Of a stretch of 64,000 nucleotides of DNA, positions 46,667 to 64,000 are shown piece after piece. Origin of the DNA: Rhina ancylostomus. Lineage: Eukaryota. The DNA is taken from NCBI GenBank assembly GCA_030265395.1, contig JARFYF010000051.1:14062399-14126398 (forward strand), written 5' to 3'. Position numbers and translations under genes: made by a program. How positions within the stretch are numbered: the stretch's first letter is position 1; each line of letters starts with the position of its first letter. The notes under the pieces were generated by a model. The model was given only the letters and a program-made list of their open reading frames with translations, had not been told where the DNA came from and searched no databases.

Positions 46667-46740
46667 TCAGCAGCTGCTTTGAGATGGAGCGAAGTAATAC
46701 ATGGCCATGATGATGAGGTAGACTACCACCAATGCTGTGC
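46667..46740 (-). CDS. Cation/H+ exchanger (CAX/VNX1-like), last coding exon
   Basis: G-TALVVVYLIIMAMYYFAPSQSSC*; acceptor ccttgcag; final TM helix of the CaCA fold. Confidence 0.93.
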
Positions 46741-47628
46741 CTGCAAGGACAAGTCAGTGTCAGGGTTAAAGGATGACAAATTTCCACTCCAGAAGATTAA
46801 AGCAAAGACCAACCTACATTGAGGAATGGAAGAATTACTGTTCTCAGCAGTTAGCTGGCAAAGCAAAGATACAGATAATTTGGGCCAAAAGGGCCCCACA
46901 CTAGAAGCAAATTCCACAACTCACTCATTCAAGATCTCTGCTTGGTCCCAGTGTCACTGGAACTCTTACCTTAAAATCAATTCCCACTTCACCTGTCATA
47001 CTTCACTTGGATTTCACACAAATCAAATCACACAATCAATACTGCTTCTGTTCAACTTAAATAAGAACCCCGTTTGAATTTCTCATGCTCTTTTTGGTTT
47101 AATACAAAAGAATGGGACAAACAAACAATAAAAATTTTCTGGCAAATATTTATCTTTGAATGATCAGCTTTTTGTTAAAGGTGTAGAAGCTGTCTGTGCA
47201 CACTATTGCTGTGTTTATTACTCTACAAGTGTGTACAGTCCAAAAATACTTCACTGGTTGCAAACCACTGAGATGCCTCCAAACATATAAAAGTAAACTT
47301 TCATAGACAAGTAACCAGGGCAGACTTGTACAGTTGGCCACCTGCAGAACATAGCATGTCAATTACTGGCCTAACCTGTGCCCTGATGCTAATACCAGGT
47401 ATACAGTGGGGAACTGTTGTCAGGGTAACGTAGAGGAAGCTCTACACTATGCAAAACATGGAAAGCCTGACATAGAACAAAACATTTGATTGCACCTCAA
47501 TACATACTTCCCTTCTCCCAGATGTGGGTCTCTGCAAAACTTATTGTGTGATATCTAATAGCCAATGCAATCTCCAAGACAACATTGTACTATTTTGTTC
47601 AACTGAACAGTGATGAAAGTTAACCCAC

Positions 47629-47737
47629 CTTGGAAATAGTCACACTTGCCATCCATGAATATGTAGTTCATTAAAATGACACTGAATATTGATGCCCAAA
47701 GATGGAGATCACTGAAGAGCAAATTAAAACCTACAGG
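47629..47737 (-). CDS. CAX exon
   Basis: PVGFNLLFSDLHLWASIFSVILMNYIFMDGKCDYFQ-G, matching the CAX DGxSxYxxG-type motif; tttag/gtgggt boundaries. Confidence 0.93.
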
Positions 47738-48322
47738 CTAAATACAAAGCAAATAATATCTGGTCAGTACAGAGGTTGATAACATTGCCTTGGCATAATA
47801 TCAATGGATTTAATTTTTAAATTAGCCCTAATGGTCCAATTAGGGTCTCAATTAAATGCTCATTTCTATAAAACCAGGTTGGCAAAGGGTCTCAACTTCT
47901 GAGTAAACGCTATACATCAACATCTTTGCTGGTTATACTTTCTATGCTCCATCCTGCACAGCTAGTTTACCCAAATCCCACCTTTTTCCTGTACTACATC
48001 CCACAGACATCATCCCTTTTGTGATTGACCTTCAACAGGTCTCATCCTTGATATTTAATTCAGATTTCTTGACCTGGTGTATGAATTCTTCCATGGCTCT
48101 ACACCATTTCTTTCCCTTAGCCATTCCCCACCACCATTCCTCCTGTCCTATAGACTGGTATGCCTTATCGCTGCCTCTCCAATTCCCCTCCATAGTACTA
48201 AAGCTGTACTAAGACACCACACCCAGCTACCTCCTGACCCCTGCTGAATAATTGGAGTGTCACAGAAGGATTTCAGGAATTTCATCAGATCAGTACACCC
48301 CCCCATGGTGTTAAATACTTAC

Positions 48323-48401
48323 ATAAATGACTGAGAAGAGCACCAGCACTGGGATTTGGAGCATACACACTTGTACAGCGATGGAACTTCCCACTTCCAA
48401 G
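48323..48401 (-). CDS. CAX exon (end of alpha-2 repeat)
   Basis: S-LEVGSSIAVQVCMLQIPVLVLFSVIY; cag/gtaagt boundaries. Confidence 0.93.
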
Positions 48402-48630
48402 CTGAGGAAATAAATCAAGATGGATGAATGAAAATTCTACAAAACGAGCACCAATGTGCCTTCCTGAAGAAAATCACATCCAGTATCCTAGTTTTGCAGC
48501 TGGGTTGTACTTTATGGCAAGCACACACTAAATACACCCAAAAATTTTCCTGCAGTTTCCCCAACATCAGCTGGTGAAGGCAACCCATTAGATATTAATC
48601 ATATCAAGACCATCCACTTCAGCTACCTAC

Positions 48631-48725
48631 CTGAGGCTGATGTTGTTCTGCAGTGCAAATTGGATCCCATTAACTATTTCAGGAAGTTCAGGAACCATCG
48701 CCAAGACCGTTACACCAAGGAAGTA
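48631..48725 (-). CDS. CAX exon (alpha-2 repeat)
   Basis: YFLGVTVLAMVPELPEIVNGIQFALQNNISL-S; cag/gtaggt boundaries. Confidence 0.94.
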
Positions 48726-49212
48726 CTGTTTGTAATAGAGAAATGCACAAGAGAAGGAGTTACCAATAAAGGCAAGTTTCAGATTTCTTCCCCTTTTCAG
48801 CCAAAACTTGGGATGTGTCAAAATGTGGAACTTTGAATTAGTGGGTAGAACCACTTCTTCCATTGTACAACTTTCCATAGAATTAAATCCACTGAGCTGT
48901 CATACCCCTGCACCACCCTCATTCTTCAAACGAGTCAATCTAGATCTTTTGCTGAATCTGCTACTTTCATCCATAATCCCAATGTCTGATCCATTATTTT
49001 TCAAAATTTATGCCGTGGNNNNNNNNNNNNNNNNNNNNNNNNNNNNNNNNNNNNNCAAAAAAAAATGGAGAATTGTAACAATTGGTCTTTTGCCACCCTC
49101 CACAGCCGTTCCGAGATTCTCAGAGAAGACGCTACCCTCAGTCAGATGCTACCCTCAAAATATCAAGTCCACCACACACAATTGAACAAGGGGCAGGAAT
49201 GCATTGACTCAC

Positions 49213-49361
49213 CGGTGAGATTGCAGAGCTGGACAACAAGGGGTCAATGTGCTCAGACACCAACTCTGCACAGGCAGACATACAAACAGTGGCTACAACG
49301 AGCAGCACCACAGCTCTCCATCGTGACCAGTGAATAACCACACTGTGGCTGTGCCCTGGAA
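49213..49361 (-). CDS. CAX exon
   Basis: VPGHSHSVVIHWSRWRAVVLLVVATVCMSACAELVSEHIDPLLSSSAISP; cag/gtgagt boundaries. Confidence 0.93.
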
Positions 49362-51064
49362 CTGCAGAGACAGCACAAATTAGCTCAACAAGCTTTTATA
49401 TTTAAAGAATGGGAGTAACTAGAGCACTAACTCATCTTACAGGCTAAATGGCAGACATCTCCCATATCATTCTGCAATTCCCTGAAGATAATACAAAGGC
49501 CAACAATTCAATAGGTATCTAATGCCAAGTTGGATTCAAGTTCTGATCATCAACCTTTCATGGAAGAGGGGAATTTCAGGCTAAATATATGTGAAAAGAT
49601 AGTGAGGAAAGGCCCATGTATATTTAACAAGTCTGACCACAGACACTAAGCTGGTGACACTCAACAAGCATCTCCTCAGCAACAGGTGATGCCATTCAGA
49701 GCTACAGTACCATTAGCATATTGTTCCTTCTAAAACACCCAGAAATTGCTTGGGAAGATGCTGCTGAAGATCAGCAACTGCAGTCAGGAAGTAGATGGCT
49801 TGTTCTCAACTTCAATGCCACTTTCAGTGAGTCAATGCTGAAGAAACATCTGTACTGGGACATTTAAAATCACCATCAACACATGAATAATGCCACCCTT
49901 AGAAGGTTTCTGGATACTGCAGTTGAGGTGACATGGAGTCAGATCATACAGCATGGAAACAGGCCATTTGGCCCATCATGTCACACTGACAGTGGGTGCC
50001 TGTCAGTATGATTGCCATCTTCCTGCAGTTGGCCCATACCCTTCTCTNNNNNNNNNNNNNNNNNNNNNNNNNNNNNNNNNNNNNNNNNNNNNNNNNNNNN
50101 NNNNNNNNNNNNNNNNNNNNNNNNNNNNNNNNNNNNNNNNNNNNNNNATCGTCCTGCAGTTGGCCCATACCCTTCTCTGCCTTTGCGATTTAAGTGCTCA
50201 CCTAGAAAAGTGTCAGCATGCCTGCTTACCCCACTCCCGCAGGCAGTGTATTCCAGGTACTCACTGAAAAAAGATCCCCCTCAGTTCCCCTCCAAATCTC
50301 TTACCCCAAGTCCATGTCCTCTAGTTTTATCTACCTCTGATATGGGGAAGTTTCCTGCAGTCCACCCTATCTATACCCATTACAAATTTTACACACCTCA
50401 ACTATGTCCCCTCGTGACTTCTACTGCTCCACAGAAAATAGACTTAGTATTAAGAGGACAGACTGGAGACACTATCAGGTTTCTAGCCAAGCAAGAATCC
50501 ATTGCCCAACACAACCCATGAAGACATGATAATCTGGAGTGTTTTGCTGGAAGTTTACATAACCATTTTCCTCAGCCAAGAGTTAAGAGGCCATCGCTTC
50601 CTTTGAGCCTGCTCCACCATGTTGAAGTACATTCCATAAACTGATTGGGTGTAAAAGTGGCATTCATGGAGGGGTATTTTTTTTTTTTGGAAATTTCTCT
50701 ACACTTGAAGCCTGATTGTCTTGCATTAACAGGAAGTATCATTTCAAAATCCAAATGAACAGATTTTATGTGGGGAGGGGTTTGGGGGACAAAACATTTT
50801 AGGAATTGTGATCATCTTTCCTCCAGCTACCGAGCAAGTGATTTATCAATAGCATTAACGGGATGTGAGGCAAGCATGCAATTCCCCATCTCACTGAACG
50901 TTCAACTGAGTGAAAGAACTTGGGTTGATACAAGGGTACACCTTTAACCAGAAGAGGGCAGCGCGCAAGAAGGGATGATTCCTGCATGCTGCCAACACAT
51001 TACATGTTACTGGTCAGCTAGGAAAAGAATGCAACTTCCCAAAGCTGGATGAAGAGGTACTTAC

Positions 51065-51177
51065 CATGACAGTCACTGATATGAATATCATAGATGTGGG
51101 TATGAGTCTTCAGAGCAAAAATGAGACCAATCACATATGATGCTGGGAGAAGTATACACACGGTGTGGATCAGGGGC
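51065..51177 (-). CDS. CAX exon
   Basis: PLIHTVCILLPASYVIGLIFALKTHTHIYDIHISDCH, containing the CAX LxFxLKTH motif; tag/gtaagt boundaries. Confidence 0.94.
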
Positions 51178-53024
51178 CTAAAGGACAGAAAGATCATTAC
51201 AGGAAACAGGTCTCATGTGATGCCCCAGTGGCAAGTAACATCCCCATATTACCAGAGCTTTACTGCAACTTATCATGCTGCCTAAGGATCAAGAACCTTC
51301 ACGAAAGCAACAAAAGAAAACTGACAGCAAGTCAAAGAGCAGAGGGGGGTGGAGAGAGGGACAATGGTGCAAAGGGAGATGAGGGTTAGAGAACAAGGAA
51401 GAGAGTGGAGATGAGGAGGTTTGTCAGAACCATAAGGATGGAGGGGCAAAGGGATAAAAAGAAAATGAGTAAATTAGATCCTATGGATTTAAAAACAAGG
51501 AATACTCTAAGAAATAGAGGCACTGCTTAACTAGGAGCCAGTGTAGGACAAGCAGAGGAATTAGGATATTGGCAGCAAGAATTTGGAATATCAAGTTCAC
51601 AGGGGGCAGAGCGAGAGGCTGGCCAGGACTCCCTCAGAACAGTCAGCTGAAAGTAAAGGCAAAGATGAGGCTTTCAGCAGCAGATGAGATGAGAAGGCCG
51701 AAGTCAGAAGACTTTAAAATAAGTTACCAACATCTTTGGTGTTATATCTGATCCTATGTCAAATAGTTGTTAACGAGGATAGAGTTGGGGTTAGTGATGG
51801 GAAATGTGAAATGTAATTCAGTCTTCCCAATATTTAACTAGCAAATATCCCTGTTCTTCCAGTCCACCAGACAGTTTGAGAAATTTAGAGACAGTGGAGA
51901 AGGAGTCAACAAAAGCAGTAGCGAGAAAAAAAAGTGCCATTTGTGTACATGGAGCCCGATTTCTATTTTTGGGTAGTTACAGGAAAATGACAGCCAGCTG
52001 AAACATTTACAACCAGCCAGTTTAGTGGCTCATCTCAATCATTATGATACAGTCCGAAAGTTCTATAAACTTTCAGTCCTGGCATCTCCTCTCACCCCCA
52101 CCACTCCTNNNNNNNNNNNNNNNNNNNNNNNNNNNNNNNNNNNNNNNNNNNNNNNNNNNNNNNNNNNNNNNNNNNNNNNNNNNNNNNNNNNNNNNNNNNN
52201 NNNNNNNNNNNNNNNNNNNNNNNNNNNNNNNNNNNNNNNNNNNNNNNNNNNNNNNNNNNNNNNNNNNNNNNNNNNNNNNNNNNNNNNNNNNNNNNNNNNN
52301 NNNNNNNNNNNNNNNNNNNNNNNNNNNNNNNNNNNNNNNNNNNNNNNNNNNNNNNNNNNNNNNNNNNNNNNNNNNNNNNNNNNNNNNNNNNNNNNNNNNN
52401 NNNNNNNNNNNNNNNNNNNNNNNNNNNNNNNNNNNNNNNNNNNNNNNNNNNNNNNNNNNNNNNNNNNNNNNNNNNNNNNNNNNNNNNNNNNNNNNNNNNN
52501 NNNNNNNNNNNNNNNNNNNNNNNNNNNNNNNNNNNNNNNNNNNNNNNNNNNNNNNNNNNNNNNNNNNNNNNNNNNNNNNNNNNNNNNNNNNNNNNNNNNN
52601 NNNNNNNNNNNNNNNNNNNNNNNNNNNNNNNNNNNNNNNNNNNNNNNNNNNNNNNNNNNNNNNNNAGTGCTGGTAATCTGAAATAAGAACAGAAAATGCT
52701 GTAGACCTCTCATGTTGACTGGGCCTAAACCTAGATAACCTGGGCAAGCCGTTGTCCAACCCCAAAAGGGAAAACTGGACCCGGTCCTCACTTGTTAGGC
52801 AAGGGGTAATGGATTAAAAACCATCAATGACAACTTGCATCTAACAGTGCACATCTCAAAGCATATTCATGACTTTCAACCCAGAGTGTTTGAGTTATTC
52901 TGCCATATTTCCATCTACTCCCCCACCCCCTAAAGCCTTTTGCACAGCCCTGCATTTCCTTTACGTAACTAGACAAGACAGCAAGCTCCAGAAGATAGCA
53001 GTGATTAAAAGAGTAAATCCATAC

Positions 53025-53143
53025 CACACTGAAGTGACAATCATTACATTCAAAGGGGCCAGATTCATTCTGTGTTGAATTGGTGCAGCCTTGACATATT
53101 AGGTTTCCATAAGCTTTAGAGAAGAGAGTTGGTGCAAACACAC
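53025..53143 (-). CDS. CAX exon (Cys-rich loop)
   Basis: G-VFAPTLFSKAYGNLICQGCTNSTQNESGPFECNDCHFSV; tag/gtatgg boundaries. Confidence 0.9.
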
Positions 53144-54048
53144 CTACAGAAATTAAAAAAAAAACAAATCAGCCATATGTCACCTCAGGTCACCCAGTGC
53201 CACAATACAAAATGACAGTCCCAGAAGTTTCAAAAGGAAGAGAATGTGGAATCCTTAACAAATTCAGAACTTGGCCTGACATCACAAGACTTGTTCTTAA
53301 CAACTACACGTGACTGATTTTGGAAGAAACATTTCCCTGAAGATGGATACAGATTCTGGCAACTGGAACGTTGGTCCTAATCACCAGTAATACACACATA
53401 CACACACCAGATTAGCATGGCTATAATGCCCATACTAAGTCACAATCCTGTGCTCAGTCATGTCTATTTGAACTTGCTCAGTAACTTTTAATTGGTGTGC
53501 AAATCATGGCTGTTTTCCAACTCCCTTCGGCAGGGAGCAAGTCTAACAAGTCCCACTTTTCTAGAGCAGGAGTCAGGGACTGGTGGGATTATAACAGAAG
53601 ATACTTACGTTTAATGAAATCAGGAAGAAGTTTTTAAACTTGGAAAAAGGGAAAAAGAACCTAGTACCTCCTCTCCTCAATGACCATGGGCCAGAAGGAA
53701 TTTAAGATAACCTGTTCAATTTTTGATTGTAAATGAACAGAAGGATATGGAGCAGAGCCAGGTAGTTGGACTTGATAAGCCATAATGTGATTGGATGGCT
53801 GTAGAATTTGAGAGGTTGCACCTCATCCAGTTGAATACATTCTCTAGGATACTAAAGCCAAGCAACAGCCCCTTTTAATTGAAGGCAACCATGTTATTCC
53901 ACTCAGTGACAACAGCTGGGCCCTCACAAATTACTGCATTACACCAGAAACAGTGCAAAATAGATTTAACTTTTGAGTTTGTGCTGTCTCCCAGTGGTAC
54001 CTTTAGTAGATGTTTTGTTTCAGAAGATGTCAGAAGAATTAGACCTAC

Positions 54049-54148
54049 CTCCCACGGATATGAAGAGCAATGCTGAGCTGATGCCAGCTGAGCGGCTGTT
54101 GAACCTCTGCTCCTGGTGCTTGCAACCTCCGATCACCATGGATATACC
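54049..54148 (-). CDS. CAX exon
   Basis: GISMVIGGCKHQEQRFNSRSAGISSALLFISVG-G, containing the CAX EQxFN motif; cag/gtaggt boundaries. Confidence 0.94.
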
Positions 54149-54697
54149 CTGGAGGACAAGCTGCTCATCAGTTTCTGCCCCAAAGCAAACTGAATCACAG
54201 GGATTTACAAAGCTGGCATTTTCAGAATCACTTTAAAATTTAGAATGTGGAAGAATTACTCCACAACTCAATACTCCACCAGACCATATTCACCAACCTG
54301 GACTTTGCAATACAACTCAATAGCATTTGAATCGAGGCAGAAGAGTGAAGGTCAAACAAAGTACTAAGGCCACCTGCAGACCCAACTTCAGCATGTCCTG
54401 CAAATTACTGGGTAGATTCTAAACTTGCAATCTTCTGAGTGAGCTGAGCAAGTCTCACTCTAGACTGGAATACATATTCTAGGAATGACAGTGTAATGTA
54501 GTACAGAGGATGTCTCCTTTCAAACATTAAACCNNNNNNNNNNAAGGTAGAGGGTCCCATGGGTCAACTAAAGACAGCCAAAAGTTCATCCCAGTATCCA
54601 AACAAGTTTAAAAACTCCAGTCACAGCACAATCTGGTGGATATCACACAGCTTCAAAAGGTGCAGTGTGATGCACTGAACGGTCTTGCAATAAAGTA

Positions 54698-55005
54698 CAG
54701 TGAAACTGATAACCTGCTATTCAACTATCCAGGAATCCTGATGGTTTGGCACACACTCACTACGTCACATTTGCTGCACTCTTTCCAGTCATTGGTCCCT
54801 ATACTCTTCAATTCACAGAGGCACCAGAACCAGGCTCCCCTTTAACTCAGCTCGTTCACTGGAAGACTTATCATATTGCATGATGTTTAAAAGTAACAAA
54901 TTTAACAAGTGTGAGATATTAATAGAAATAACAACCAAAAGTCCAAAAAAAATCTGATAATCTAGCACACTCGAGACTTGGAACTGGATTAGCAGAATTT
55001 TACTG
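54698..55005. mobile_element. Probable Tigger-like MITE
   Basis: TA|CAGTGAAACT ... AATTTTACTG|TA termini; ~310 bp. Confidence 0.5.
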
Positions 55006-55300
55006 TAACAGGACAGAACCTTCAAACTGAAGGTGGCAACAGAAGATCCTACATCAGAAAGCTTGTCCCTATTGCTTGATAAGGGGACCTGGAGACAGGG
55101 GAGATTTGGCTACAAAGCAATATTCTTGCAGTCAATGCTGTCTCATGGAAGGACCAATATTACAAGCATGAAAGAGATCAAGTGGTCAGATGGTTTGCAA
55201 ATGACTGGGTCAGTTCTTGTCCTGGCTAAGAGAAATTAAACATTGCAGAGTTCAAGTTTCCTAATGAGGCAAGCAAAAGCAGGCAGCTGGAATAACTTAC

Positions 55301-55484
55301 TGGAATAAAGAGGACACATCCCAACAAGGTTCCAGTCAGAGCACTTTTCACCACCTCCTCATAGCACTTGTTCCCTTTATGGCTGCCTTTGATCAGAGCA
55401 GTTATGTAGAAGGTCAGCTCAGTGATTGAACCAAATGTGGCATTCACTACTGCACCTACTGCAAAGTTACTCTGCGCTGAAATG
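55301..55484 (-). CDS. CAX exon (alpha-1 repeat)
   Basis: S-ISAQSNFAVGAVVNATFGSITELTFYITALIKGSHKGNKCYEEVVKSALTGTLLGCVLFIP; NATFGxxxE is the CAX alpha-1 signature. Confidence 0.95.
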
Positions 55485-58234
55485 CTGAAAACAAGAGTAG
55501 ATTTAAATCATTGTATGTTAGAAAATTTTGAATACAGTTTCCCAAACTCATTCAACCATTTTCAATAGGCAAGGTGGTACAGTTACCAAATGCAATTAAA
55601 AAAATTAAGTTGTTGCCACACATGGAAAAAAAAGTAAAATCTGGTACATGAGTACTCCTGGGTACAAAGGAATCATGGGTTTAACGTTCTACAAGTATCA
55701 GCACGCCACAGTCGTTACATAATGACATTGCTCAAGGCTGAAGCTGCAATACTTCCTTTGGAACAACACTTCATAATACTGTACGCCATCAATTCAGGTG
55801 TTGCCAAGTGAGGTGTTTATATAAAAATAAGCATTAACTGGCTTCAGGAGGTATGACATTTCAGCATGATGGTCACACTGAAGTATGTGCTCAAAGAACA
55901 TGTAATGCATTTCACTTTAAAATTTAAGTTGATTTTTGAAATCTGGAAATGCAAGTCCAATCAGTCCAACTCATTTGTCAAGGCTCAAGAAACTTCAGAT
56001 GCTGGGATCTGGAGCAACAAACAACCTTCTGGAGGAACTCAAGAGGGTTGAGCAGCATTTGTGTGTCTGTCTCCATCTACCTGGCTCTGTCTCCCAGCTC
56101 CATATCTCCCCCCTCCCCCCCAACCCCACTGAGATGCCACTTCACCCAATGAGTTCTTCCAGCAGGATGTTTGCAACTCAATTGTGCTCAGTTCTAACTG
56201 AGCAAGGATGCAAAGGGCAATGGAGATGTGTGCAAATGGGAAGTTACAAACACCAGGAAAAGGTTGACTGGACCCAGGGGAGGGAGGGAGGGAGGGAGGG
56301 AGGAAAATTCATCCACGGGGTGACCTAATAATCTTCTAATTAGGGAAAGGTTTGACAATGTTGCAAAAGACCTTGCCACTTAAGGGAATTCAAAACTAGA
56401 GCCACATTTAAGGTGGTCACTAATCAATCCAATAAAACTCTGGAGGAATGTTAAGTAGTGAGAATTGAGGCCTTACTACTGCAAGGTGTGCTTGAGGTGA
56501 GTAGTTTAGGTGCATGACAGGGGAAACCCATGAGGCAAAGGAAATAAAATAAAAATCAATAAAGCCAAGTATCAGCAAGGCCAAACAGTACAACTGTGGT
56601 ATCATCTCTTCCTCTGTGGCCTAGAGTAGGTTCTAGAAGATCAGTGTTTACCTTTTCCACTCTTCCAACAGTTATTAGAATACATACTACAAACTCTCTC
56701 AAACCAGTTTGACTTTAATTTTAACTTCCTCCAAACACTTCTCATGGCTTATTGCCACCACTGTTTCACAACAATTCAACAGGTAGTGCAACATAGGTAG
56801 AGCAAACTGCACATGTCCAAGGAACAAAGGATCACGTGGGTGCACGAAGGCAGTATTGCACAAGCAGAAGGAAGCCCACCTGCCATCCTGCGTACACGAG
56901 AACATACACACTCAGTGCCCTTGTGTAAGTTGGACTTTAAAGACTGACATAGAAGATCACACAACTTCACACTTGTCAAAACAGCCCCAAGACTGCCTGT
57001 GGTCTATCAACAAATGCTGATCAACCAAAAAAAACAGCAAGTCTTGCATACAGATGAGAATGCAAATCAGAATGAGCCCAATGTACCACCTGACAAAAAA
57101 ACCCCCAAACACAGCCACAGGATTTTAAACCAATAGAAAAGGAGGAGGTGTTGAGACATTTCCCACTCCTGCCCTCCGAGAAGCAATTTCAAGCAGGAAA
57201 CCTTTGCAAAAAAAAAACGACTTACATCACTGGGAATATTTCTAAATTGATCTACTTATTCTTTGAACCAGAAAGGTGGTTTCACCTTAATTGTATAGCA
57301 AATAATTCATAAAAGAGGAAGTTAAGGTTGAGAGCATTGTCTGACAGCACAAGGGGAGATAAAGCAACGTGAAATAAAATCTATGATAAAGTACACCAGA
57401 AGTGAGAACACATTGCTTGCGGTACAGTATTGTTCCTGACTTCAAAGTGATGTACTGCAGAGTTTCCACTATGTTCAAAATGTGATCAAACCATTCTTCA
57501 AGTTTGCTTCCAATGCACCCTCTTGTTGCTGACAGCCAAGGAATGTTCCTTTCTGTGCCTCAATTGGGGGTGGAGGTGTAAAGTGAAGACTTTTAGAAAA
57601 AGATATTTTGTAATGAGAACAAGTGTTCAGAATTATTATTACTGACATATTATGTCCTTGATGGTGGAGAGGGTAGTACCCATGATGGAGCTGGCCGAGT
57701 CTACAACCCCGTGCAGCTTCTTTCAATCCTGCACACTGAAGCCTCCATACCATTGTAGATTTTACCAACTATTCTCGTTTCTTCCAGAGATCTCCCAGAG
57801 CACCAGATACAGTAACAGGAAAATATTTCAAGAGCCGATCATCTTACTGCACCCTTTCAAACATTAGGCTTTATTAGCTGGGCAGAAAAGAGTAGGTAGA
57901 GCTCTGTGTTTTCATTGAACACAGGCTGAAGATGGACTGGGTCATTTCCAGCTTCTGTCTCATCCCCACATGCACCCAAGGGAATGTTACTTTCCAACTT
58001 GCCTTTTAATGGGAAAAGTTTGCTAGGCAAGTCACCCTGTCATTTTTGGGGAAGAATACACTAAGAGAAAATGCCAAGGATGAAGTAGGATGGGGGAGGG
58101 GTAGTGGTGGAAGTGGGGGAACCTGGGTACAGAGGGGGTAATGGAAGAGTTTAGGAAACACCAGCATGAACCAGTTCGCTCACATAGCCCGTTACTTTGC
58201 TACAATGACAAAAGTACAACAAGGTTCTGCTTAC

Positions 58235-58376
58235 CTCGCGATTGCCATCCCAATGTAGTAGGACAGAGGAATTATTGCCAAGATGGATAGGGCAAATTTT
58301 ACAGGAGAACTGGCATAGTGATTCTCTGTGTCAGCATACCCCAAGACCAGAGCAACTACTACTAGAGGAAGCAGAT
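58235..58376 (-). CDS. CAX exon (first TM hairpin of the exchanger domain)
   Basis: N-LLPLVVVALVLGYADTENHYASSPVKFALSILAIIPLSYYIGMAIA-S; preceded by a U12 branch site. Confidence 0.94.
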
Positions 58377-59798
58377 CTGAAGAGCCAGTTAAGGAAATAA
58401 CTTGCACGAAAAAGCAACACAGTCACCAGTAGACAATAGTCACTAACCACAGTACATGCCCCAGAAGAGACTCAGGAGTTATGTGAAAATTGGGTGCACC
58501 TTTTCCTTGCTTTGTATAGTCCAAACTGCAAGGTTTAGAGTANNNNNATAGTCCAAGCTGCAAGGCTCTACCACGTAGCATGCTTGGACTGGCCTAACCC
58601 AATTACTGCGTCATTAACTATAGAACGAAGGATAAAAACATCATCAAGTTCAAGAATCCACATTGTGATGGAGCAGAGGGAGACTTAAATTTGCTTCTGA
58701 TTGAAGAACAATTCTAAAATTCTGCTAGAGTAGTGCTCCCAATAACTAGCCACGCGACCAGCTGCATTTCTGGGCAACAGAAAAGCAAGAGGCACTCTCA
58801 ATACTCACCATGTGAGCTTTGTAAAATTACAGTAACAAAGTACTTCTTTTGATTATGTTTACTAGTGTGGTGATTGAATGTTCATCTTGGTAAAGATACA
58901 AATGAAGAACACTTACCTCTCGTGAACATGATACTTTTCACTAAAAAAAAATTAGTAGTGTGCATAGTTGAATTAAGTTTGACAATTACCACCCCAGGGT
59001 TGCGTTCAATGAATTTTATTGAACAAAGTAACAGTGCCAACCAGTTTACAGGCCAACATCAAGCAATGCAATGGGATAATTTGGGGACATTGAAAGTGCA
59101 CAGTTAACAAACTTTCTGTGCCTTTTAAATAAAATTTTAAGCCAACTCCTTTAACAGCACTATTTGGGATCGTTGGATAAAAAGGTATAATTTTGGAGTC
59201 TTCCGACTTACACATATTGGCCTTTATTTCTCTTATAGCCAGGAGAGCTGTGTTGCTCAAATGGAAAGAAGTTACTGCCCCCACTCATGTTCAATGGCTA
59301 CGGGATATTGTGTCATATCTAAATTTAGAGAAGATCTGTTGTTCGATTTCTGGATCTAATCTGGACTTTCAAATATTGTGGGGACCTTTCTTGAACTACT
59401 TTCAAAACCATTGATTTGGTTCTTAAAGTACAGATACTGGCTAATACTATTGTGTCTTCAGGGCTTTAAAATTTTTTTTTAAAAAAAGAGCTTCAGTCTT
59501 GGTAGTGGGTTTAGTTTTTTTATATAATAAAATTATTCCAATTTATTAATATCAATTAGTTATTTCAGTTTATCAATGAGGTATTGTGATTTCAAGTGTG
59601 ACTCAATACAATGTATTTTGCAACATTTTGTCTTTTCTTTTGTTCCATGTACTTTGTACTCTATCTGGAATTAATAAAAAATATTGTAAAAGAGAAAGTG
59701 CACAGTTAGCATACAAAGCAAAATAATTCAATTCTACTTTAATTAGCAATTGTACCTTTCTCCAGCCTTACTCCTTCACTTGGAGTATCAAAGGATAC
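58377..59798 (-). other. U12-type (minor spliceosome) GT-AG intron in the CAX gene
   Basis: Donor GTATCCTTT (59798-59790); branch site TTTCCTTAAC (58397-58388) ending 11 nt before the exon. This junction keeps the reading frame. Confidence 0.92.
59107..59693 (+). mobile_element. 5'-truncated L1-type LINE with a 15-bp target-site duplication
   Basis: ORF LAFISLIARRAVLLKWK..PTHVQWLRDIVSYLNLEKI..WGPFLNYF (fish L1 ORF2 C-terminus), AATAAA/A-rich end, GAAAGTGCACAGTTA at 59092-59106 and 59694-59708. Confidence 0.88.
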
Positions 59799-59901
59799 TC
59801 ACAGCAAACACATTAATGCCAACTACTGTGTACTTGTAATAGTAGAAATTCATAGCACGGTAACAACAAAGGACCACTTCTCCATCCAGTGGACTGTCAG
59901 T
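59799..59901 (-). CDS. CAX exon followed by a U12-type donor
   Basis: TDSPLDGEVVLCCYRAMNFYYYKYTVVGINVFAV-N, resembling the VNX1/type II CAX 'YYKYTxxGxN' motif. Confidence 0.92.
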
Positions 59902-61334
59902 CTGGTGGCAGGGAGTGAAACAAAGTAAAAATCAGTTCACTGAGATAGTTCAACCCAAGGATCTATGTTTTATGAATCACATCGGGCTGAACCTCTTGTG
60001 TTGTAAAATCATGAGGGATATAGACAGAGGATTTTCTCCCATTAGCAGAGGTATCAAGAACTAGGGGACATGGAAGGATTATGATTGGCAAAAGAACCAA
60101 AAGAAGTGACACTAAAAGAAATCCCCCCACCCCATCAAAACATAGCAAGTGGTAAGGGTGTATAATGCACTGCCAGAACTTGCAGTGGTGGCAGAGTCAA
60201 TTGCAGCATTGAACAGGGAGCTAGAAAAGGAAAGAATTCACAGAACTACAGGGAGAAGGCAAGGAAGTTCTACCACCATGATTGCTCTTGCATAGAGTCA
60301 GTAGGGAACACAGGAGCCTCCTTCATTGCACTGATTGCTCTGACTTGATTTTGGATCAGATTGTAGCTAATGAGATCCTGAACTGGTCAGAACAAAAGCC
60401 AGGGTTTTATGATGATACCAGAGACCAGAACCAGTTGTTCTGACCATCCGCAGGCATTACAAGTGTTCAGGCCTTCATTTTAAAATCAATTTCCAAACTG
60501 TCAAAGAATGTCTCATTCCTTCTCCAATCTCCCCAGTGCTACAAACCTATACTTTAATTCTGGCATCACACCAGTAGTAGCAGCCCGGACTCCAAGATCT
60601 GAAATCCCTAGCTGCATAATCTCCTCGAAATCTTCCACTGCTAACTTATCTGAATATCTCATATGGCTGGCTGTCAAAATATTAAAAAACAATTTCATTA
60701 TGAACACTGAAGCATTTTTCTTCATTAAAGATACTATACAAATGAAAGGAATTAGTTCTGTCACAGGAATATATGATTTTCAATGAAGCAAATTGATGGT
60801 CCATTAGATAGATCCAAGCAAATTACTTTTTGCTAAATTGGTGCTGAGCCATTTGAACTTATGAGCCATAAGTCATCTCCAATAACTTAACTAATTTGTC
60901 TCACTGGAGCTTCATTGAAGTTAACTAAATTAATTTTAACTAAATTAAAGTCAAGCTTCCAAAATAAAGCACAAATCTAACAAGCTGCTGTTTGTTATCC
61001 TGCTCCTTATGAGGCTGAATAGCCAACCAGAAACACTGGCCAATATGAGCACTATAGTGGAGCTCATCATGGAATAACTGTTATAAATTCAGTAGCAGAT
61101 GGGTAATGATATTCTGATAATATTGGTGGCACATTTACAAATGTGCAGACTTGCAGACATTAAAAGGAATTGTTTAGTTTGCCTTAGTGTAAAGCAACAG
61201 GGCTGCACACGAGAAAACACCACATCCACTGCCAAATCAGTCACCCAAGTACAGAGGCAGCTTTGGGTTAACTCAGCACTGAATATACCAGCACAAGGAC
61301 ACTGGAAAACACCCAACATTCTCCATTAAGATAT

Positions 61335-62770
61335 AACAACAGAAAATGCTGGAAATACTGAGCAGATAAGGTAGCATACGTAGAGAGAAACAGGAACCAA
61401 TAACTAAGATTCTGTAACTGAGACGCAGTGCCTAACAGAACACAAGATGCTGTTGGATTCAGTGGAACAGTGCAAGAGGCCAAAGACTGAGGTTGTAGTG
61501 GGAGAGTGATGGAGAATCAAAACTGACAGACATCGAGAAGCTCAAGGTCAACCTTTCTAACTTGAAGTAATCACCCAATCTTCTTTTGCTGTAGAGAAGA
61601 TTAAATCATGAGCACCAAATGCAGTACACTAAATTAGAAATTTCAGAAGTTCACTGCTTTACTTGGATAAAGGAAAGGATAAAAGGAAAGGACAAGGGAA
61701 ATTCTATCCTTGCTGTGGGCGAGAGGAGGAGAGGGCAGAGGTGCAGTAGCCATGGTTAAAGGAAAATNNNNNNNNNNNNNNNNNNNNNNNNNNNNNNNNN
61801 NNNNNNNNNNNNNNNNNNNNNNNNNNNNNNNNNNNNNNNNNNNNNNNNNNNNNNNNNNNNNNNNNNNAGGAAAATGGCAGACATCACAGGAGCACTGATG
61901 AGCCAAATGTCATCAGAACAGATATAATGGAACCAGAGAATGGAAGGGAATCCATTCTGGAAGCAGGATGAGAGTCACAGTCAAAACAACTGTGGAGTCT
62001 ATGGGCTTCAGGTGGATGTTGGTCAGTAACCTATCCCATGGTGGTGATAGAGACATTACCAAAACAAAGAATTATAGCGATTAAAGAGCAGGGTGGCAGC
62101 TGCCAGCGAAAGGTGATGAAATGCACACATTCTTCATGAAAACAGTAAGCAATATCCAAAGAGTCAATGTACCAGGGAAAAAAATTGAAGGGCACCCCAA
62201 GAAAAACTGAAGCAAGGACCATGCCACATAGCCACAGACAGGCATAGTTATGACCCATGTTGGTTCCCCTAGTGAGAGCTCTGATACACCCACCTCAGCG
62301 TTCAGACTTTAAATGCCATGATTAGATAAGTTTCTCATCTCCCCTTTCAGCATTCCAAAAGGGACTGGCCCCTCCACATCTTGGTTCACTCTTTCATCTC
62401 CATCAACACCAATCCCTTCTCTCAGAATCCGCAAGAGACTGAGCACCTGCCCTATTATCAGTTGCCTTCCCACCATACGCTGCATCTCAGTTCCAGTGCT
62501 CCCCCACCACAGCCTTATTCAATTGCATTCACATTTCCTTCAACCAGATCTGCAATTATAAAACCTTCCTCACCACAATTTACACACACAGCCTCCATCC
62601 ACCACATTCCCCTTTTTATTTCTCCACAGCTTAAAACATACTCATTTCCTACTTCTGATGAAAGGCCATGGACTTGAAACTTGAACTGGTTCTTTCTCCA
62701 CAGATGCTGCCTGACCTGCTGGGTATTTCCAACATGTAATTTCAGATTTTTAACACATGCAGATTTTTTG
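61335..62770. mobile_element. Penelope-like element remnant with inverted termini
   Basis: 'cagaaaatgctggaaatactgagcag' at the left, 'agatgctgcctgacctgctgggtatttccaacat' at the right, with decayed PLE-like internal sequence. Confidence 0.65.
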
Positions 62771-62915
62771 TACAAAACTTTCCCACATTAGGATGAATTT
62801 ATCATGCTCCTTAAAGCCCCTTCAGTTACCTCAAGTTCTAGTTGTTGATTTGTAATGTTCCTATTATGTTGTCATTAGGAGATACTGTGCACTGCCAGCA
62901 AAACAAGATCCTTAC

Positions 62916-63101
62916 CCTCTTGGATGGTCTGATCTGAAGCTGCTCAGGAGGGATTAGCAGGATGTCAGTGATGGCTCTGACATTTAGCTTGGCTATTGGA
63001 ATGGTGACAACCAAAATCCAAGCAATGAAGGAAGCCAGGCCATGGGCAAGTGCGAGAAGTGGATACCCCAGGAGAAGCCACACATAGGTGCTAGGAGAGT
63101 G
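62916..63101 (-). CDS. CAX exon (N-terminal membrane region typical of type II CAX); gene continues past the window
   Basis: HSPSTYVWLLLGYPLLALAHGLASFIAWILVVTIPIAKLNVRAITDILLIPPEQLQIRPSKR; ttccag/gtaagg boundaries, phase 0-0. Confidence 0.88.
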
Positions 63102-64000
63102 CTGGAAATGAATAAGGACAAAAGTTAATTTGTTGAGTTAACCTAATTCCATCTTAACCATAAGACAGCATGTTCTTGCATTAAAAAAAAGAGGAAGTTG
63201 TAACATAGCATACCACACTAATAGTTGTGCACACATTCTGAAACTAAGGGGATGTAAACAGTTATGGTGCTTGCCAAATCTCACATCCCCACTAAACCAC
63301 AAAGTAGTATCATTCACTGCATAACTAGGCTAAGGTTTGAAAAGCACAAGGCCAAAATATCTACGTGAGCCAGAGGAAAATTTTTGCAGCCCACTATTAA
63401 AACAATTCACCATTTCCGCTCAAAACCTTAAGATGCAGCAGAACAAATGATCGATCTTGAAAAGAAAATGGCAAACAAATGTAGAGATTTGAATAATCTT
63501 ATTCTGCAGTGGCAGCCAAATTAGACTTCTATCAGTGCGCAAAAGGGTTCCAGAGGACCAAAGTGTCACACTAATAAAACTAGTGCCAAACAAGGAACCC
63601 CCACCAAGCAAAATACTCATTAAGAGACTAAGGAAGCAGGAAGCAGCAACCAGCTTACCCCATGGCTAGAAGGAAATTGAGAAGTGCTTAGCTCTTTCAG
63701 TATTGACAATTAGTTGGAGAATACATTATCAACTTTTAGAATATGGAGCATTTCACCAAACAATATTGTGCAATTAACCACCATTCAACTGCTCTTATCA
63801 TCTGTTATTGCAATAAATCAGGTTGAAATGTTTCCAGGGGAACATTCCTTCCACGTCAGAGAAATGCACCACTTGATGAAGTCCCACGACAGTGCCCTTT
63901 CCCAACTCAACTCCTATGCTGGACATTCTACTCAATCAAACCCTCAAATCTGTATAAATGTTCAACATCCTCTCTTGACTGAATGCACCAAAAACAAGCT

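What the first reader, a model, noticed from the sequence alone, without database searches (positions are those of the whole stretch)
58377..59803. Canonical U12 intron in the CAX gene with an overlapping, frame-shifting U2 donor
Seen: the minus-strand exon end reads ..GCT GTG A|GTATCCTTT, and the acceptor has TTTCCTTAAC 11 nt before the exon, both matching the U12 consensus. Four nt upstream of the U12 donor is GCT|GTGAGT, a consensus intronic U2 donor; using it with the same AG would shift the frame just before the exchanger domain. Inference: competition between major and minor spliceosomes could act as an NMD-coupled switch on CAX output, or mark a U12-to-U2 conversion path. I do not know whether this intron is already catalogued.
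Basis: partly seen in the sequence, partly recalled or inferred. Interest (0 to 1): 0.7.

Follow-up and report, generated by a model that had tools for sequence, protein, structure and literature searches.

The report
U12 intron in ray CAX gene
A cartilaginous-fish calcium/proton exchanger gene carries an intron with the textbook signals of the rare minor spliceosome, spliced at the predicted ends in a relative's transcript, while the overlapping major-type splice site is likely a by-product of the protein sequence and not a regulatory switch.

Summary
The intron is real: minus strand 59798-58377 (1422 nt), donor GTATCCTTT, branch site TTTCCTTAAC 11 nt before the exon, phase 1 in the Asn codon of FAV-N-LLP of a CAX1/VNX1-type exchanger. 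One transcript-like contig from a related organism joins exactly these ends. The genome holds U11, U12 and U6atac. Read-through protein models suggest the donor is kept in birds and the branch region in a skate. The overlapping GCT|GTGAGT at 59802 exists and would give a stop after 4 codons, but no use of it was seen; only contigs were available, which drop rare forms. Five of its six letters are fixed by Val, Asn and the U12 GT; the sixth is a purine in 33 of 50 Val codons of this gene. Thirty other GT sites in the gene pair U1 as well or better. Verdict: new member of a known kind; the switch is unsupported but untested. The scan had no note on this gene; it judged similar spare donors on other DNA as cryptic. 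Side lead: a septin intron with the mirror-image layout.

The parts
58377..59798 (-). GT-AG U12-type intron, 1422 nt, phase 1 inside the Asn codon (A|AT)
   Evidence: spliced contig X1 joins 59799 to 58376
59790..59798 (-). U12-type 5' splice site GTATCCTTT, preceded by GA (not AG)
   Evidence: pairs with the genome's own U11 and U6atac in a coarse duplex calculation
58388..58397 (-). U12-type branch site TTTCCTTAAC, adenosines at -14 and -13
   Evidence: complementary to the genome's U12 with one bulged A; same reading kept in a skate-cluster read-through protein P0159
59795..59805 (-). Overlapping U2-like donor GCT|GTGAGTAT, first base 59802; use not observed
   Evidence: U1 duplex -7.4 kcal/mol, weaker than 7 of the gene's 10 U2 donors in the window and stronger than 3; would give a stop after 4 codons
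59799..59901 (-). Upstream coding exon, 103 nt (TDSPLD...INVFAV + A)
58235..58376 (-). Downstream coding exon, 142 nt (AT + LLPLVV...GMAIA); the -4 frame stops at 58364-58362, 127 nt before the next junction
46667..63101 (-). Part of the CAX1/VNX1-type cation/H+ exchanger gene inside the window (12 exons located; one more is probably lost in an assembly gap; six further exon matches lie beyond the window end)
58801..58919 (-). Two intronic U2-like donors (first bases 58916 and 58808) that pair U1 better than the -4 site; use not observed
   Evidence: -12.6 and -11.1 kcal/mol

Best explanation
This is a GT-AG intron with consensus U12 signals in the CAX1/VNX1 exchanger gene of a cartilaginous fish, likely removed by the minor spliceosome, and the GTGAGT four bases upstream of its donor is likely an unselected by-product of the codons for Val-Asn meeting the GT of the U12 donor. 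U11/U12 would bind the donor and branch site together and join A to AT, restoring the Asn codon and the full-length transporter. The -4 site is a latent cryptic donor: U1 could bind it and the pyrimidine-rich U12 branch region could serve as a U2 acceptor, so low-level use, or more use when minor splicing fails, is plausible, and such transcripts would be NMD targets. That would be leak, not a selected switch.
For: Shown: consensus donor and branch site at the exon ends; exact junction in one contig of run X1, a related organism; U11, U12, U6atac genes in the genome. Protein: of 120 hits, 101 cover the junction; Ala and Val are present in 101 of 101, Asn in 94 of 101, and neighbouring Y, Y, K, Y, G, N, A are equally invariant, so Val needs no splicing explanation. 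Val = GTN and Asn = AAY fix G, T, A; the U12 donor fixes the last GT; 33 of 50 Val codons of this gene end in a purine. The -4 site lacks all three exonic pairs with U1. 30 other GT sites among 1004 scanned in the gene pair U1 as well or better, two of them inside this intron; 9 of 13 GTRAGT hexamers in the span are not donors of my exon model. GTRAGTATCCTTT is not enriched in the genome: 85 matches against 205 for the reversed control. Literature: dual-type acceptors are rare, and none of the 10 listed has the two donors 4 nt apart (PMC10853781, section 16 and Table S7); a GT 4 nt upstream occurs in about 9% of constitutive human exons (PMC2423196, Table 4 passage).
Against: The U12 pathway itself is inferred from sequence; no minor-spliceosome perturbation was seen. 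The -4 site pairs U1 over eight consecutive intronic-side bases and scores better than 3 of the gene's 10 real U2 donors. The acceptor's pyrimidine content (0.76) is like that of the gene's U2 acceptors, so U2 use is not excluded by sequence. A relative's DNA contig (X3) shows no listed change at 59790-59805, so the purine may be kept, though 2 of its 7 differences were not listed. Contigs drop rare variants and NMD would hide the product, so the missing -4 junction is weak evidence. The third base of the Val codon could not be read in other vertebrates. U2-donor/U12-acceptor use does occur in normal human cells (10 events; PMC6800510 passages).
Confidence: 0.8

Rival explanations
1. Regulated U12/U2 competition: U1 at -4 and U11 at +4 to +10 exclude each other, the U2 route shares the AG, shifts the frame and sends the mRNA to NMD, so minor-spliceosome activity sets CAX output.
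For: The geometry allows it: overlapping U1 and U11 sites, stop 127 nt before the next junction, U2-like acceptor pyrimidines. Precedents of shared acceptors and NMD-linked switches exist (CENATAC, SRSF10; PMC8329584 section 7).
Against: No -4 junction in the one transcript-like run; no truncated form found among short proteins (3 candidates, none scored; weak); 54 of 54 elasmobranch models intact; hexamer explained by codons; described switches are mostly in splicing factors with a feedback logic, which a transporter lacks (inference).
Confidence: 0.08
2. U1 binds the -4 site without splicing there and slows or helps U12 recognition (steric block or exon definition), so the site tunes intron retention instead of producing an isoform.
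For: Eight consecutive U1 pairs overlap the U11 site; overlapping U1/U11 sites act this way in the Rous sarcoma virus NRS (PMC8329584). X1 holds one intronic contig at depth 3.1 against 34.5 for the exons; retention would stop right after the donor.
Against: The intronic contig may be DNA, pre-mRNA or a repeat; contig depth cannot measure retention; no conservation test of the purine was possible.
Confidence: 0.07
3. The -4 site marks an intermediate of U12-to-U2 conversion.
For: GT-AG U12 introns convert more often than AT-AC ones (PMC2831892 passages). A septin intron in this genome has an in-frame U2 donor with a perfect U12-like donor 4 nt downstream.
Against: Both U12 signals are full consensus, with no decay; the shared AG, the AG at 58401 and the AG at 58941 all give early stops; the donor appears kept in birds (AVSIL read-through in 4 of 101 models) and U12 introns are very stable in vertebrates.
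Confidence: 0.03
4. The intron is really removed by the major spliceosome at 59798 and only resembles a U12 intron.
For: GT-AG ends; misclassified cases exist (PMC10853781 Table 1); my duplex score for U12 pairing did not separate this acceptor from one ordinary acceptor of the gene (-9.3 against -13.6).
Against: Misclassified introns mostly have AG at -2/-1 and poor branch sites; here -2/-1 is GA, the branch site is consensus at the right distance, and U1 pairing at 59798 is the weakest of the gene's donors (-4.5).
Confidence: 0.02

Closest known systems
GT-AG subtype U12-type introns (PMC3584512, passages; consensus RTATCCTT and TCCTTRAY in PMC10853781 Table 1)
   Same: Donor, branch site, distance to the AG and absence of AG at -2/-1 all match.
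   Different: The host gene is absent from placental mammals (PMC4810305, passage), so human and mouse lists cannot hold it. The 11 nt after the branch site are fairly pyrimidine-rich.
Dual-type 3' splice sites and U12/U2 twintrons: CENATAC/CCDC84, DRAM2, PFDN5, KANSL2, SSR3, SRSF10, NCBP2 (PMC10853781, PMC6800510, PMC8329584, PMC3564746)
   Same: A U2-like donor near a U12 donor that could share one acceptor, with a premature stop on one route.
   Different: Those cases are defined by transcripts from both routes; here only the U12 route was seen. The closest donor pairs in Table S7 are 14 and 17 nt apart, not overlapping at 4 nt.
Tandem donors 4 nt apart (GTNNGT) of U2 introns (PMC2423196, abstract and passages)
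   Same: Same geometry, frameshift and NMD outcome; most such upstream GTs are never seen used.
   Different: Here the downstream donor is U12-type, so the two sites would call different spliceosomes.
Vertebrate CAX (cation/H+ exchanger protein 1, VNX1-like; Pfam Na_Ca_ex PF01699 and YccF PF03733)
   Same: One exon is 95-100% identical to shark, ray and chimaera CAX1 proteins; the residues after the junction match the ray and skate pattern.
   Different: No difference of note in the protein.

Membership tests
U12-type intron | 5' splice site RTATCCTT at the true exon end | tested here: met
   GTATCCTTT at 59798; junction confirmed in contig X1
U12-type intron | Branch site TCCTTRAY about 10-13 nt before the 3' end | tested here: met
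   TTTCCTTAAC ends 11 nt before the exon; A at -13 and -14 (distance from PMC3584512 and PMC6800510 passages)
U12-type intron | No AG at -2/-1 of the donor | tested here: met
   -2/-1 is GA; criterion from PMC10853781 section 16
U12-type intron | Minor spliceosome encoded in the genome | tested here: met
   U11, U12 and U6atac over the Rfam cut-offs; U4atac was not searched
U12-type intron | Signals conserved in orthologues | tested here: inconclusive
   Only indirect: AVSIL read-through in 4 of 101 models (two named bird models, two unnamed) and QVISLTGS read-through in P0159; DNA of one close relative
U12-type intron | Splicing depends on U11/U12/U6atac | not testable with these tools
   No perturbation data could be laid on this stretch
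U12/U2 dual-type site or twintron | A U2-type donor that can pair U1 | tested here: met
   GCT|GTGAGTAT, -7.4 kcal/mol, inside the range of the gene's real donors
U12/U2 dual-type site or twintron | Transcripts from both routes | tested here: inconclusive
   Only the U12 junction in one contig set; contigs drop rare forms and no raw reads were offered
U12/U2 dual-type site or twintron | U2 donor conserved beyond coding need | tested here: inconclusive
   Five of six letters are forced; the free base could not be read beyond one close relative
U12/U2 dual-type site or twintron | Ratio shifts with minor-spliceosome activity or NMD block | not testable with these tools
   No such runs available

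The most novel reading that the evidence does not exclude
The -4 donor is a used, conserved poison route: U1 and U11 compete for one 13-base element, so the level of an acidic-organelle Ca2+/H+ exchanger follows minor-spliceosome activity in non-placental vertebrates. With the mirror-image septin intron in the same genome (U2 productive, U12-like site 4 nt downstream ending in TAA), GTRA|GTATCC could be a small recurring class of overlapped two-spliceosome donors, tighter than any pair in the dual-type table I read.
Probability: 0.08. Interest if true: 0.55.

Novelty: new member of a known kind. Interest (0 to 1): 0.2.

Why it matters
As it stands it adds one vertebrate minor intron in a gene that placental mammals lack, so it can be missed by human- and mouse-centred lists; it predicts that cax transcripts are affected in minor-spliceosome mutant fish and frogs, where CAX acts in neural crest migration (PMC4810305, abstract). 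That is a modest gain. If the overlapping donor were used and conserved it would be the tightest U1/U11 overlap in a cellular gene that I found described, and a clean test case for spliceosome competition; the present evidence does not show that.

Tried and rejected
RNA evidence: the one run search listed no holder on record as RNA; three contig sets were laid. X1 behaves as a transcript assembly because it joins exons; X2 may be the source of this DNA and is not independent. No raw reads, so donor 59798 versus 59802 could not be counted; two low-support joints were not shown. Second copy of the upstream exon (L002, contig C69, 92% identical over 119 nt): it ends in a run of N just before the donor, has 6 replacement and 2 silent codon changes, and no second copy of three neighbouring exons was found, so it is likely a decayed fragment and gave no donor to compare. 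Metagenome scan: one distant homologue, L013, about 40% identical, without an intron at this place and with Phe where vertebrates have Val; its origin is unknown, so it says little. Search for truncated -4 products among short proteins found nothing that scored; a search for more read-through models returned only 18 full-length proteins. The profile search of protein representatives never ran. Duplex energies with the genome's U12 were too coarse to separate U12 from U2 acceptors and are not used as proof. No MaxEnt or intronIC score was available. Cataloguing: searches for a CAX minor intron found no paper; cax1/cax2/VNX1 were absent from the supplements of PMC11347168 and PMC10639083 and appeared only in GO lists among the rows I saw of PMC11326282 (2 of 7 places); the zebrafish Zrsr2 supplement could not be read and the U12DB, IAOD and MIDB databases were out of reach, so the intron may well be listed there. 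Searches for a U2 donor 4 nt upstream of a U12 donor found nothing relevant.

Full report
Observation. On the minus strand the exon 59901-59799 ends ...GCT GTG A and is followed by GTATCCTTT; the next exon starts at 58376 after TTTCCTTAAC TGGCTCTTCAG. The intron is 1422 nt, GT-AG, phase 1 in an Asn codon, and the joined exons read INVFAV-N-LLPLV in an open frame. Each motif occurs once in the window but is not rare enough alone: 46 of 100 shuffles reach the donor count and 12 of 100 the branch-site pattern. Their position at independently defined exon ends is what counts.

The gene. A downstream exon is 95-100% identical to cation/H+ exchanger protein 1 of sharks, rays and a chimaera; full-length ray proteins map exon by exon on the window and on the next 20 kb and carry Na_Ca_ex and YccF domains. 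The residues after the junction match the ray and skate pattern, so the source is likely a batoid; this is inference. The junction lies near residue 353 of 747, upstream of the Na_Ca_ex stretch that Pfam printed (596-738; the other stretch was not printed). CAX genes are reported absent from placental mammals (PMC4810305, passage).

Splicing evidence. No run on record as RNA was offered. Of three contig sets, X1 comes from a related organism (8 other letters in 104, 4 in 142) and holds one 2593-nt contig that joins 59799 to 58376 with no ambiguity in the cut. In the close-up it is the only X1 record on 59705-59990, it stops at 59799, and its loose end is the start of the next exon. No record ends at 59803. 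Contigs drop rare variants and an NMD target would be rare, so this shows the main route only. All 54 of 54 elasmobranch protein models examined have the intact junction.

U12 identity. The genome encodes U11, U12 and U6atac. The branch region is complementary to the genome's U12 with one bulged A, and the donor pairs U1 worst of the gene's 11 donors in the window. The -2/-1 bases are GA, not the AG typical of misclassified U2 introns (PMC10853781 section 16). Conservation is indirect: 4 of 101 homologues read through the donor as AVSIL, the same as the window's own read-through and compatible with A|GTATCCT, two of them named bird models; an unnamed protein in the skate cluster reads through the acceptor as QVISLTGSTD, against QVISLTGSSD in the window (window frame read). 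Dependence on the minor spliceosome is inferred, not shown. My duplex energies were too coarse to be proof: one ordinary acceptor of the gene scored better against U12 than the true branch site.

The -4 site. GCT|GTGAGTAT pairs U1 at +1 to +8 and not at -3 to -1; at -7.4 kcal/mol it is weaker than 7 and stronger than 3 of the gene's 10 U2 donors. Used with the shared AG it gives I-C-F-L-stop, 127 nt before the next junction; with the AG at 58401 or 58941 it also stops at once. The acceptor is as pyrimidine-rich as the gene's U2 acceptors, and a U12 branch region can serve as a U2 tract (PMC8329584), so cryptic use is plausible. But the hexamer is almost forced. Of the 120 listed hits, 19 do not cover the upstream exon and were left out; in the other 101, Ala and Val are invariant and Asn is in 94, the other seven being read-through or otherwise aberrant models. 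Val gives GT, Asn gives A, the U12 donor gives GT. Only the purine is free, and 33 of 50 Val codons in this gene end in one. Val is no more invariant than its neighbours. Thirty other GT sites among 1004 scanned pair U1 as well or better, two of them inside this intron, and 9 of 13 GTRAGT hexamers in the gene span are not donors of my exon model. Genome-wide, GTRAGTATCCTTT has 85 matches against 205 for the reversed control. Against this reading: a relative's DNA shows no listed change around the donor, with 2 of 7 differences unlisted, and I could not read the free base in distant vertebrates.

Comparison with what is known. Competing U12 and U2 sites, shared acceptors and NMD-linked switches are described (PMC8329584 section 7 read in full; PMC6800510 passages; PMC3564746 passages). 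They are rare and defined by transcripts of both routes; the 10 dual-type sites in Table S7 of PMC10853781 have donors at least 14 nt apart. Donors 4 nt apart are the commonest tandem form among U2 introns, and about 9% of constitutive exons carry an upstream GT with no observed use (PMC2423196 passages). U12 introns are very stable in vertebrates (PMC2831892 passages). I found no paper on a CAX minor intron and no entry in the supplements I could search; one supplement was unreadable and the intron databases were out of reach, so it may already be catalogued.

Side result. Among the first 30 of the 85 genome matches, two are recognisable coding-exon ends: CAX and a septin (Pfam missed the CAX frame itself, so others may be coding). 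In the septin the in-frame donor is the U2-like GTAAGT, a perfect GTATCCTTT starts 4 nt downstream and would leave an in-frame TAA, and the acceptor has TCCTTAC 10 nt before the exon. A paralogue has GTAAGTGTCCTG and TCCTTGAAC 7 nt before the exon; two more distant septins have plain U2 donors at this position and one has no intron there. This may be a relic, a dual site or chance; no RNA test was left.

Verdict. The U12 intron is real and ordinary. The overlapping donor is most likely a coding by-product that acts at most as a cryptic site (confidence 0.8). The switch is possible but has no support (about 0.08). Interest 0.2; new member of a known kind.

Noticed in passing
L045:1501-1513 (G000:C46:6372813), acceptor in L060 near 87; paralogue L053 and L061 (G000:C94): Septin intron with the mirror-image layout: in-frame U2 donor GT|GTAAGT with a perfect U12-like GTATCCTTT 4 nt downstream that would leave an in-frame TAA, and a branch-like TCCTTAC 10 nt before the next exon. 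The paralogue keeps GTAAGTGTCCTG and TCCTTGAAC. By recall these are SEPT2-like genes. Possible U12 relic or U12 poison route; no paper found and no SEPT2 entry in two supplements. TCCTTA words also occur in ordinary pyrimidine tracts.
   Followed up: partly
window 58940-58917, minus strand: Inside the U12 intron a T-rich AG (58941) with CTAAT upstream and a strong GAG|GTAAGT donor (58916) frame a 24-nt candidate cryptic exon that begins with TGA; joined to the -4 donor it would stop at once. No X1 contig covers it.
   Followed up: partly
window about 59080-59700: High-copy repeat inside the intron (depth in the thousands in both DNA-like runs); it looks like a LINE fragment by eye, not tested.
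   Followed up: no
window 58679-58845: One intronic contig in the transcript-like run X1, depth 3.1 against 34.5 for the exons; may be retained intron, pre-mRNA or DNA.
   Followed up: no
L002 (G000:C69:4775671-4775790): Lone second copy of the upstream exon with about 20 nt of its acceptor, 92% identical, 6 replacement and 2 silent codon changes, no partner exons found; likely a decayed duplicate.
   Followed up: yes
window 63102-63131, minus strand: The acceptor of the exon at 63101 carries TCCTTAT and pairs the genome's U12 better than the true U12 branch site, although the nearest upstream donor is not U12-like.
   Followed up: partly
window 52109-52680, minus strand: One CAX exon (about residues 530-545 of P0015) is missing from the assembly between exons 53143-53025 and 51177-51065, probably in the 557-N gap.
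   Followed up: partly
proteins P0037, P0044, P0045, P0057, P0061, P0099, P0106, P0108, P0113: Several public CAX models are aberrant exactly at this junction (read-through or shifted ends), as expected when gene finders meet a U12 intron.
   Followed up: partly
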